Positions 60,985-61,016 of a DNA stretch of 64,000 nt are shown here, piece by piece (position 1 is the first letter of the stretch; each line of letters starts with the position of its first letter). The notes below the pieces were generated by a model. That model saw only the letters and a program-made list of their open reading frames with translations, did no database searches and was not told the DNA's origin. The position numbers were made by a program, and so were the translations under genes. The stretch is from Escherichia coli (GTDB taxonomy: Bacteria; Pseudomonadota; Gammaproteobacteria; Enterobacterales; Enterobacteriaceae): NCBI RefSeq assembly GCF_051903065.1, contig NZ_CP178438.1; one strand, 5' to 3'.

Positions 60985-61016
60985 TTTCACCCTCTTCCCA
61001 GAGGGGCGAGGGGAGT
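60985..61016. repeat. GC-rich palindromic element in melR-melA intergenic region
   Basis: ttttcaccctcttccc-aga-ggggcgagggg; shares the ttttc.ccctct.ccc / gggg.gaggg core with the elements at 33531-33627. Confidence 0.55.

What the first reader, a model, noticed from the sequence alone, without database searches (positions are those of the whole stretch)
60985..61016. Related GC-rich palindromic element upstream of melR site region
ttttcaccctcttccc-aga-ggggcgagggg shares its core and left flank with the 33591-33627 element. It sits in the melR-melA divergent control region just upstream of the MelR operator, so it may affect melR promoter architecture.
Basis: seen in the sequence. Interest (0 to 1): 0.3.

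Follow-up and report, generated by a model that had tools for sequence, protein, structure and literature searches.

The report
Decayed BoxC repeat in mel promoter spacer

Summary
Window 60990-61012 (CCCTCTTCCC-AGA-GGGGCGAGGG) is an imperfect palindrome in the melR-melA intergenic region of E. coli O157:H7. It is related to the two elements at 33534-33568 and 33596-33628 well beyond chance.

Those two elements are a BoxC / PIT / TMECO pair, a known E. coli repeat family with roughly 13-17 detectable places per genome. The mel copy keeps only the hairpin half, 23 of 24 bases identical to the "type A mm" consensus, plus family-typical flanks on both sides. It lacks the third G-block that defines a triplex-capable TMECO.

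It lies at -56 to -78 from the melR transcription start, between the CRP site of the melR promoter and MelR site 1'. The full-length mel control region is found in 5398 of 5426 complete E. coli genomes, and every copy aligned carries the element without length change. It is also in three other Escherichia lineages. It is absent from about 20 other enterobacterial genera, most of which have a spacer 12 nt shorter.

The element region is the least conserved part of the control region. It has no terminator, promoter or Rfam signal. Published truncation and spacing experiments argue against a sequence-specific role.

Verdict: a decayed repeat remnant serving as spacer. Low interest; a new member of a known kind.

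The parts
60990..61012 (.). Imperfect palindrome: the hairpin half of a BoxC/PIT/TMECO repeat (C block, loop, first G block). On the minus strand it reads CCCTCGCCCCTCTGGGAAGAGGG. It lies at -56 to -78 from the melR transcription start.
   Evidence: model positions 1-24 of 36, 18.0 bits, E 2e-4. DNA hairpin -7.9 kcal/mol, z = -1.3.
60976..60989 (+). Left flank GAGCACGGTTTTCA. It resembles the 5' flank of type B BoxC copies (...gcaccgTTTTCT). The GCAC part overlaps the right half of the melR CRP site, and a matching CAC(A) occupies that position in other genera. Only about GGTTTTCA is therefore likely repeat-derived.
   Evidence: flank table. (type B model aligns 60976-61012, 13.2 bits, E 0.0028). 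(other genera have xCACA at the aligned position).
61013..61027 (-). Right flank. On the minus strand it reads GATGCTCGGACACTC and resembles the 5' flank of type A BoxC copies (gtgctcagacaGTC). Origin is uncertain, because about half the positions also match the ancestral spacer of other genera.
   Evidence: the type A model with flank aligns 61027-60989 at 25.1 bits, E 6.4e-7, against 18.0 bits for the core alone. for the alternative homology.
60965..60986 (.). CRP2, the 22-bp CRP site centred at -41.5 of the melR promoter. It abuts the element (context).
   Evidence: PMC2377442 states the position. Coordinates were derived from site 2 at -174.5 and the -10 hexamer CATAAT found at 60945-60940.
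60924..60945 (-). melR core promoter: -10 hexamer CATAAT (60945-60940), transcription start about 60934, and MelR site R over the start (context).
   Evidence: sequence. PMC2377442.
61042..61117 (.). MelR sites 1', 1 and 2 with CRP1 between sites 1 and 2. The 18-bp sites 1 (61062-61079) and 2 (61100-61117) form the large inverted repeat (context).
   Evidence: inverted repeat I1. PMC2377442. The site 1' position comes from established Busby-lab numbering, recalled and not re-derived here.
60003..60911 (-). melR coding sequence.
61194..62549 (+). melA coding sequence.
33534..33568 (-). Complete BoxC/TMECO type A copy (CCCTCGCCCCTTTGGGGAGAGGGTTAGGGTGAGGG) in the yjdP-phnP intergenic region. It is the closest sibling of the mel element.
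   Evidence: 43.9 bits, E 1.6e-12..
33596..33628 (+). BoxC/TMECO type B copy (CCCTCTCCCTGTGGGAGAGGGCCGGGATGAGGG) with one G-to-A change in the third block. Its 5' flank TTTTCT is shared with the mel element.
   Evidence: 24.3 bits, E 2.2e-6..

Best explanation
The element is a truncated, decaying copy of the BoxC repeat family, also described as PIT elements or TMECO.

A full family member has three blocks: CCCTCNCCC, then a loop and GGGNGAGGG, then a 3-nt loop and a second GGGNGAGGG. The mel copy retains only the first two blocks, which form the hairpin, bracketed by the flank typical of type B copies on the left and of type A copies on the right. That layout is what a tail-to-tail B/A pair would leave after deletion between its two direct CCCTCTCCC repeats (inferred, not shown).

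The element entered the spacer between the melR CRP site and MelR site 1' before the sampled Escherichia lineages diverged. It replaced unrelated sequence and lengthened the spacer from 40 to 52 nt.

It is not inside either known mel transcript and cannot form the family's three-stranded structure. Its most likely present role is passive: it is spacer DNA whose length, close to one extra helical turn, is tolerated by the MelR/CRP nucleoprotein complex. Its sequence drifts freely.

Shown: family relationship, truncation, position, taxonomic distribution and variability. Inferred: the collapsed-pair origin and the absence of a sequence-specific function.
For: Family relationship:
- Pattern search gives 4 matches against 0.01 expected.
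- nhmmer models independent of the window give E 2e-4 for the core and E 6.4e-7 with the flank.
- The reciprocal BLAST of the 52-nt mel segment finds a median of 13 places per E. coli genome.
- The 33.5-kb pair finds a median of 17 places per genome.
- The family consensus and the 23 K-12 copies come from PMC4666352.

Truncation: alignments stop at model position 24 of 36, or 44 of 70 with flanks. No GGGNGAGGG third block follows in either orientation.

Flanks: TTTTC precedes the C block in 7 of 9 type B copies and in mel. The minus-strand mel flank matches a K-12 type A flank at 11 of 14 positions.

Distribution:
- The 351-bp region is full length in 5398 of 5426 E. coli genomes, and every listed match spans exactly 351 bp.
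- The spacer is 52 nt in all 5 Escherichia lineages in that alignment.
- It is 40-42 nt in 15 sequences from 11 other genera, and 28-32 nt in six more. The other intervals stay at 49, 75 and 85-86 nt in most.

No constraint on sequence: O157 and UTI89 differ at 18 of 46 positions in the element region, against 1 of 52 in the core melR promoter and 1 of 20 in site 1. Hairpin pairing is no better than column shuffles, with 228 of 500 shuffles at least as good.

No other signal: there is no terminator-like or promoter-like site. No Rfam match reaches a gathering score, and none covers the element. The hairpin is weak, at -7.9 kcal/mol and z -1.3, against z -2.7 and -3.4 for the complete copies.

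Experiments in the literature:
- The melR promoter in pJW15 is cut at -59, inside the left arm, and still drives MelR over-expression.
- TB10, which lacks upstream sequence, has the same unrepressed activity (330 vs 300 Miller units).
- PIT elements showed no promoter or terminator activity.
Against: - The palindromic character is largely retained across Escherichia: 87.7% of pair cells can pair. The B2 lineage carries one two-sided change (C-G to T-A) that keeps a pair. This is weakly compatible with selection on the hairpin.
- The element sits where the RNA polymerase alpha C-terminal domain is expected to dock upstream of CRP at a class II promoter, so a quantitative effect on melR expression is not excluded.
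- The exact positions of the published 5- and 10-bp deletions and the exact upstream limit of TB10 could not be read, because the supplement is not held. They may not touch the palindrome.
- The right flank is only about as similar to the type A flank as short sequences allow. It also shares about 10 of 20 positions with the Salmonella spacer, so the collapsed-pair origin is not proven.
Confidence: 0.72

Rival explanations
1. Functional architectural element. The Escherichia-specific GC-rich hairpin was co-opted to tune the mel switch. It could set the phase and distance between site R/CRP2 and MelR sites 1'/1/2, alter alpha-CTD contacts upstream of CRP at the melR promoter, or stiffen or kink the DNA inside the MelR repression complex.
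For: It is fixed at constant length in every E. coli copy aligned and in three other Escherichia lineages. It occupies -56 to -78 of a class II CRP promoter. Across genera, indels in the site R to site 2 distance (176, 164, 153, 144, 132) all lie within about 0.2 turn of whole helical turns. That fits the phasing dependence seen experimentally. There is one compensatory pair change in B2.
Against: The phasing constraint concerns length, not this sequence. The region is the most variable in the control region, with 39% divergence between O157 and UTI89. Unrepressed melR promoter activity is unchanged without upstream DNA, and the promoter works when cut at -59. Unrelated pBR322 inserts between the site blocks were tolerated. 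Pairing is not above shuffles.
Confidence: 0.12
2. An intact triplex-forming PIT/TMECO element that can fold into an intrastrand triple helix and cause polymerase stalling or local genome instability at the mel promoter.
For: The first two blocks fit the TMECO consensus with one mismatch. The surrounding spacer is unusually divergent between phylogroups, reminiscent of the elevated variability reported around TMECO loci.
Against: The third G block, which supplies the third strand, is absent in both orientations. The locus is not among the 23 K-12 TMECOs, and melR does not occur in the held supplement text. No indels or rearrangements appear at this locus in the E. coli genomes sampled. Divergence of the B2 allele also extends to the CRP1 spacer at 7 of 20 positions, well away from the element.
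Confidence: 0.03
3. Chance GC-rich palindrome that arose locally and has no relationship to the 33.5-kb elements.
For: The match is short (23-24 nt) and compositionally biased. The hairpin is not thermodynamically exceptional (z -1.3).
Against: 0.01 matches are expected against 4 found. E is 2e-4 to 6e-7 with models built from copies outside the window. The loop (CTCT) is identical to four K-12 copies. Family-specific flanks are shared on both sides. Sequence at the same position in other genera is unrelated and 12 nt shorter.
Confidence: 0.03
4. A transcribed RNA hairpin, either a terminator or attenuator or a small RNA element acting on melR or melAB mRNA.
For: It can form a 9-pair stem with a 3-nt loop.
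Against: It lies upstream of both known transcription starts (melR about 60934 leftward, melAB about 61171 rightward), so neither mRNA contains it. No T-run follows it on either strand, and no terminator-like site was found. No Rfam match covers it.
Confidence: 0.02

Closest known systems
BoxC repeats of E. coli (Bachellier and colleagues), also called PIT (potential intrastrand triplex) elements (Hoyne, Maher and colleagues, 2000) and TMECO (Holder et al. 2015, PMC4666352)
   Same: Same C block, loop and first G block, at 23 of 24 positions against the type A mm consensus. The loop CTCT is identical to K-12 copies 9, 16, 19 and 22. It has the same kind of 5' flanks (TTTTC for type B, a GCTC...GTC-like flank for type A). 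It is intergenic. It resembles the degenerate or partly deleted copies that Holder et al. report at TMECO loci, including inverted pairs reduced to a simple stem-loop.
   Different: It lacks the second loop and the second G block, so it cannot form the triplex that defines PIT/TMECO. It carries type B-like and type A-like flanks on opposite sides of a single hairpin. It is not in the published K-12 TMECO table. It lies inside an intensively studied promoter region, not 3' of genes.
The complete BoxC pair in the same window (33534-33568 minus strand, 33596-33628 plus strand; yjdP-phnP intergenic region)
   Same: Core palindrome and flanks. Both belong to the same dispersed family, with a median of 13-17 BLAST places per E. 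coli genome.
   Different: Those copies have all three blocks and fold more stably (z -2.7 and -3.4, against -1.3 for the mel element).
REP/BIME and ERIC (IRU) elements, the other small intergenic palindromic repeats of enterobacteria
   Same: Short, intergenic, palindromic and dispersed, with no coding capacity. They can sit between genes without obvious function.
   Different: Unrelated sequence. REP elements have known partners (IHF, gyrase, RAYT transposases) and mRNA-stabilising roles when transcribed. No partner or mobilisation mechanism is known for BoxC, and this copy is not transcribed by the known mel promoters.
Spacer DNA in AraC-family repression assemblies (araC O2-I1 loop; MelR site R with sites 1', 1 and 2)
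   Same: What matters is distance and helical phase between the protein-binding sites. [quoted passage not shown]
   Different: In Escherichia the spacer happens to be made of a repeat remnant. No experiment has addressed the remnant itself.

Membership tests
BoxC / PIT / TMECO (definition of Holder et al. 2015: CCCTCNCCC N3-6 GGGNGAGGG N3 GGGNGAGGG) | C-rich 9-nt block CCCTCNCCC | tested here: met
   Minus strand 61012-61004 is CCCTCGCCC, an exact match.
BoxC / PIT / TMECO | First loop of 3-6 nt followed by the first G block GGGNGAGGG, complementary to the C block with one mismatch allowed | tested here: met
   The loop is CTCT, identical to K-12 copies 9, 16, 19 and 22. The G block is GGGAAGAGGG against GGGGAGAGGG, one substitution.
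BoxC / PIT / TMECO | Second 3-nt loop (TTA or CCG) and second G block GGGNGAGGG, the third strand of the triplex | tested here: not met
   nhmmer alignments end at model position 24 of 36. The minus strand continues TGAAAACCGTG and the plus strand continues GAGTGTCCGAG, so there is no G block in either orientation.
BoxC / PIT / TMECO | Family-typical flanking sequence (TTTTC[T/C] 5' of type B; ...cgGTC 5' of type A) | tested here: met
   TTTTCA precedes the plus-strand C block. The minus-strand flank GATGCTCGGACACTC raises the type A model score from 18.0 to 25.1 bits. The models were built from K-12 copies outside the window.
BoxC / PIT / TMECO | Dispersed, multi-copy, intergenic | tested here: met
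   The family has a median of 17 places per genome. The mel segment itself finds a median of 13 places per genome. The element is intergenic.
BoxC / PIT / TMECO | Forms an intrastrand triplex in vitro (CD/NMR) | not testable with these tools
   Without the third block it is predicted not to form one. Only a hairpin of -7.9 kcal/mol is predicted.
Intrinsic (rho-independent) terminator | G+C-rich stem-loop followed by a T-run, located within a transcript | tested here: not met
   The scan found 0 terminator-like sites in 60850-61250. The element lies upstream of both mel transcription starts.
Curated RNA families (Rfam 15) | A match at or above the family's gathering score | tested here: not met
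   There are only sub-threshold plant or animal miRNA hits, caused by the MelR site 1/site 2 inverted repeat at 61030-61147. Nothing covers 60985-61016.
MelR operator (18-bp site such as site 1, 2 or R) | Similarity to the 18-bp MelR site (ATTCCCATAAACTCAGAT and variants) | tested here: not met
   The repeat search of 60900-61200 pairs sites 1', 1 and 2 with each other but never with the palindrome. The published sites are five and lie elsewhere.

The most novel reading that the evidence does not exclude
The BoxC remnant was domesticated in Escherichia as a regulatory spacer module. By adding about one helical turn of GC-rich, hairpin-prone DNA exactly where the polymerase alpha-CTD and the MelR repression complex meet, it would retune melR autoregulation relative to Salmonella, Citrobacter and other genera. 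A related possibility is that it acts as a local mutational hotspot that produced the highly divergent B2 allele of the mel control region.
Probability: 0.08. Interest if true: 0.45.

Novelty: new member of a known kind. Interest (0 to 1): 0.15.

Why it matters
It matters little for mel biology as understood. The result explains an unexplained GC-rich palindrome in a textbook AraC-family control region as debris from a known repeat family.

It also gives a clean natural example of a repeat insertion being tolerated inside a multi-protein regulatory assembly. The insertion adds 12 nt to a spacer that is 40-42 nt in 15 of the other sequences aligned, representing 11 genera. That length is close to one helical turn.

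Finally, it shows that searches defined by the three-block triplex pattern miss hairpin-only BoxC derivatives. This is relevant to counts of the family and to claims about instability at its loci.

Tried and rejected
1. Terminator or promoter reading: the scan of 60850-61250 found none.

2. Known RNA family: only sub-threshold miRNA artefacts from the MelR-site inverted repeat.

3. Strong structural conservation: I first judged from the alignments that the B2 and AST85 variants destroy the hairpin. The pair count corrected this. 87.7% of cells still pair and there is one two-sided change, but neither exceeds column shuffles, so the test is inconclusive, not negative.

4. Every listed match is full length. 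One low-coverage hit (H40, strain AQ15) lies in a region annotated as a string of gene fragments and was disregarded.

5. Primer positions of the published 5- and 10-bp deletions: the supplement is not held.

6. Literature link between melR and BoxC/PIT: none in the held library. melR does not occur in the held supplement text of the TMECO paper.

7. A simple 12-nt insertion: rejected. The whole stretch from GGTTTTC to GAGGGG (about 34 nt) has no similarity to the aligned sequence in other genera, so it looks like replacement plus net gain.

8. The GCAC immediately left of TTTTC also resembles type B flanks. However, a matching CAC(A) occupies that position of the CRP site in other genera, so it is more likely ancestral than repeat-derived.

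Full report
**What is there.** The window is E. coli O157:H7 DNA: a 351-bp query around the finding is 100% identical to several O157:H7 chromosomes. melR is at 60003-60911 on the minus strand and melA at 61194-62549 on the plus strand. Its core, 60990-61012, is an imperfect palindrome, CCCTCTTCCC-AGA-GGGGCGAGGG. It has nine possible pairs, one of them a T.G wobble, with one T.C mismatch and a 3-nt loop. As single-stranded DNA it folds at -7.9 kcal/mol. That is only 1.3 sd better than shuffles. The two elements near 33.5 kb fold at z -2.7 and -3.4.

**Is the similarity real?** Yes.
- A degenerate pattern covering the palindrome finds only this site and 33546-33568 in 64 kb, on both strands. 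That is 4 matches against 0.01 expected.
- The 33515-33640 region belongs to a dispersed family with a median of 17 BLAST places per E. coli genome.
- The literature identifies this family as BoxC, re-described as PIT elements and as TMECO. The consensus is CCCTCNCCC N3-6 GGGNGAGGG N3 GGGNGAGGG, with 23 copies in K-12 and two subtypes: A (second loop TTA) and B (second loop CCG) (PMC4666352; PMC2267715).
- In the window, 33534-33568 (minus strand) is a perfect type A copy. 33596-33628 (plus strand) is a type B copy with one substitution.
- An nhmmer model made only from the 23 published K-12 sequences puts the mel element third in the window. It aligns on the minus strand at 61012-60989 to model positions 1-24 of 36, with 18.0 bits and E 2e-4.
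- The reciprocal search with the 52-nt mel segment finds a median of 13 places per genome, not just the mel locus.

**Anatomy.** I fetched eight further K-12 loci carrying 14 copies with flanks and tabulated them together with the two window copies.
- Of the 9 type B copies, 7 are preceded by TTTTC[T/C] directly 5' of the C block. The 7 type A copies are preceded by ...GTC, most often ...cgGTC.
On the minus strand its other side reads GATGCTCGGACACTC, which matches a K-12 type A flank (gtgctcagacagtc) at 11 of 14 positions.
- Flank-containing models built only from K-12 copies elsewhere score it at 25.1 bits, E 6.4e-7 (type A model, 61027-60989). The type B model gives 13.2 bits, E 0.0028 (60976-61012).
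- In neither orientation is there a second loop and second G block.
- The element therefore has the layout: type B flank, one hairpin, type A flank. In the K-12 pair at hrpB-mrcB, a type B copy on the plus strand is followed tail-to-tail by a type A copy on the minus strand. A deletion between that pair's two direct CCCTCTCCC repeats would leave exactly this layout. Holder et al. report that inverted pairs are often reduced so that a simple stem-loop remains. This origin is an inference. The right flank is short and also shares about half its positions with the ancestral spacer of other genera.

**Position in the control region.**
- PMC2377442 gives the melR -10 hexamer as CATAAT, found at 60945-60940.
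- It places MelR site 2 at -174.5 from the melR start. Site 2 is the 18-bp repeat at 61100-61117, so the start is at about 60934.
- It places the CRP site at -41.5, which gives 60965-60986.
- Site R lies over the start.
- The palindrome therefore spans -56 to -78 of melR, directly upstream of CRP2 and about 30 nt before MelR site 1'.
- It lies upstream of both transcription starts, so neither mel mRNA contains it.
- There is no terminator-like or promoter-like site in 60850-61250 and no Rfam match over it.

**Distribution.**
- Within E. coli, 5398 of 5426 complete genomes hold the 351-bp region at full length, and every listed match spans exactly 351 bp. The six E. coli sequences aligned all carry the element without length change.
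- The sequence is nevertheless variable. 1011 records fall in the 80-90% identity band, UTI89 among them.
- O157 and UTI89 differ at 18 of 46 positions in the element region. They differ at 1 of 52 in the core melR promoter, 1 of 20 in site 1 and 2 of 18 in site 2.
- A genome-contig scan with MelR returned 80 loci. In an alignment of 26 melR-melA intergenic regions, the BoxC-like sequence occurs only in Escherichia: E. coli, E. whittamii, Escherichia sp. E1V33 and a divergent "E. coli" representative.
- The interval from the CRP2 half-site to the conserved GCCGAA of the site 1' area is 52 nt in all Escherichia.
- It is 40-42 nt in 15 sequences from 11 other genera, including Salmonella, Citrobacter, Kluyvera, Cedecea and Pantoea, with unrelated and more AT-rich sequence. 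It is 28-32 nt in the Klebsiella/Raoultella group, Kosakonia and Serratia oryzae.
- The neighbouring intervals (49, 75, 85-86 nt) are nearly invariant in most of the sequences.
- The element is thus an Escherichia-lineage acquisition that added a net 12 nt.
- Across genera the site R to site 2 distance takes the values 176, 164-166, 153, 144 and 131-132. The indels are about +12, -11, -20 and -32, all near whole helical turns.

**How it most likely works.**
- Published experiments altered the spacing between site R and the upstream MelR sites. MelR autorepression was reduced by 5-bp changes, restored by a 10-bp deletion, and at least partly restored by 41- or 91-bp inserts of pBR322 DNA placed downstream of site 1'.
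- Unrepressed melR promoter activity is the same with or without upstream DNA: 300-350 Miller units for TB20, TB22, TB23 and TB10.
- The promoter in pJW15, cut at -59 inside the left arm, still over-expresses MelR.
- PIT elements showed no promoter or terminator activity.
- Together with the high variability, this favours a passive role. The remnant is spacer DNA whose length is compatible with the helical phasing the complex needs, and whose sequence is not read.
- The pair count gives one caveat. 87.7% of pair cells can still pair across nine Escherichia sequences, and the B2 lineage has one two-sided C-G to T-A change. Column shuffles do as well in 228 of 500 trials, so this neither supports nor excludes selection on the hairpin.

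**Comparison with the known, and novelty.** The family is known. The mel copy meets the C-block, loop, first G-block, flank and intergenic criteria. It fails the defining third block, so it is not a PIT/TMECO in the strict sense. It is a BoxC-derived remnant. It is absent from the published K-12 TMECO table, and melR does not occur in the held supplement text of that paper. No paper in the held library links melR with BoxC. Whether the older 32-copy BoxC catalogue lists it could not be checked. I rate it a new member of a known kind, of low interest.

**Verdict.** The suggested influence on promoter architecture is supported only in the sense of spacer length. Interest 0.15.

Noticed in passing
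window 33520-33645 versus K-12 NC_000913.3 4314200-4314345 (L087:1700-1850): The BoxC locus between yjdP and phnP is rearranged between strains. The type A copy with its flank is on the minus strand in O157 and on the plus strand in K-12; the reverse complement of the K-12 segment matches O157 almost exactly over about 58 nt. K-12 has only a stump (CCCCTCACCCcaatGGGGAGAGGGAGAAAAC) where O157 has a second copy. This looks like an inversion between inverted blocks of a pair plus a deletion, the kind of instability reported for TMECO loci.
   Followed up: partly
window 60972-61100; UTI89 L002:393-521: Some E. coli strains, including UTI89, carry a very divergent allele of the unconstrained parts of the mel control region: 39% in the element region and 35% in the CRP1 spacer, against about 2% in the core melR promoter (1011 records fall in the 80-90% identity band). 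In the element region this allele looks more divergent from O157 than E. whittamii does. That suggests an old imported allele or locally elevated mutation. In these strains PGAP also calls melR 8 codons longer.
   Followed up: partly
window 2785-2810: A possible second decayed BoxC copy, TCCCGCTCCCTTATGGGAGAAGGTTA, including the type A second loop TTA. The third block is eroded. It lies immediately before a REP-like sequence (GCCGAATGTAGGCCGGATAAGGC). The nhmmer E is 0.05-0.3, so it is not significant on its own.
   Followed up: partly
L010-L086 (melR-melA spacers of non-Escherichia genera), aligned to window about 61013-61020: Most non-Escherichia spacers, including the short Klebsiella/Raoultella ones, share a small motif A[G/T]nnTAG (for example AGCGTAG, ATAATAG, ATCTTAG) at the same position. 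Escherichia has A[G/T/C]nGTCC there. Its function is unknown; it could be a conserved site that Escherichia lost.
   Followed up: no
L010-L086 versus window 60900-60915: MelR homologues in most other genera appear to have about 8 extra N-terminal codons relative to E. coli MelR, seen as a 24-nt gap next to the start codon in the alignment. As a result, raw intergenic lengths (282 vs 292) hide the 12-nt gain in the Escherichia spacer.
   Followed up: no
L046 (Citrobacter amalonaticus S646), L081 (Raoultella terrigena), L086 (Kluyvera sichuanensis): These three loci have much longer melR-melA intervals (541, 1364 and 1251 nt against about 290). This suggests insertions, possibly mobile elements, in the mel control region of those strains.
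   Followed up: no
window 61030-61147: The large inverted repeat formed by MelR sites 1'/1 and 2/2' (42-nt arms, 79% complementary) triggers several sub-threshold Rfam plant and animal miRNA-precursor hits. These are artefacts of the operator symmetry.
   Followed up: yes
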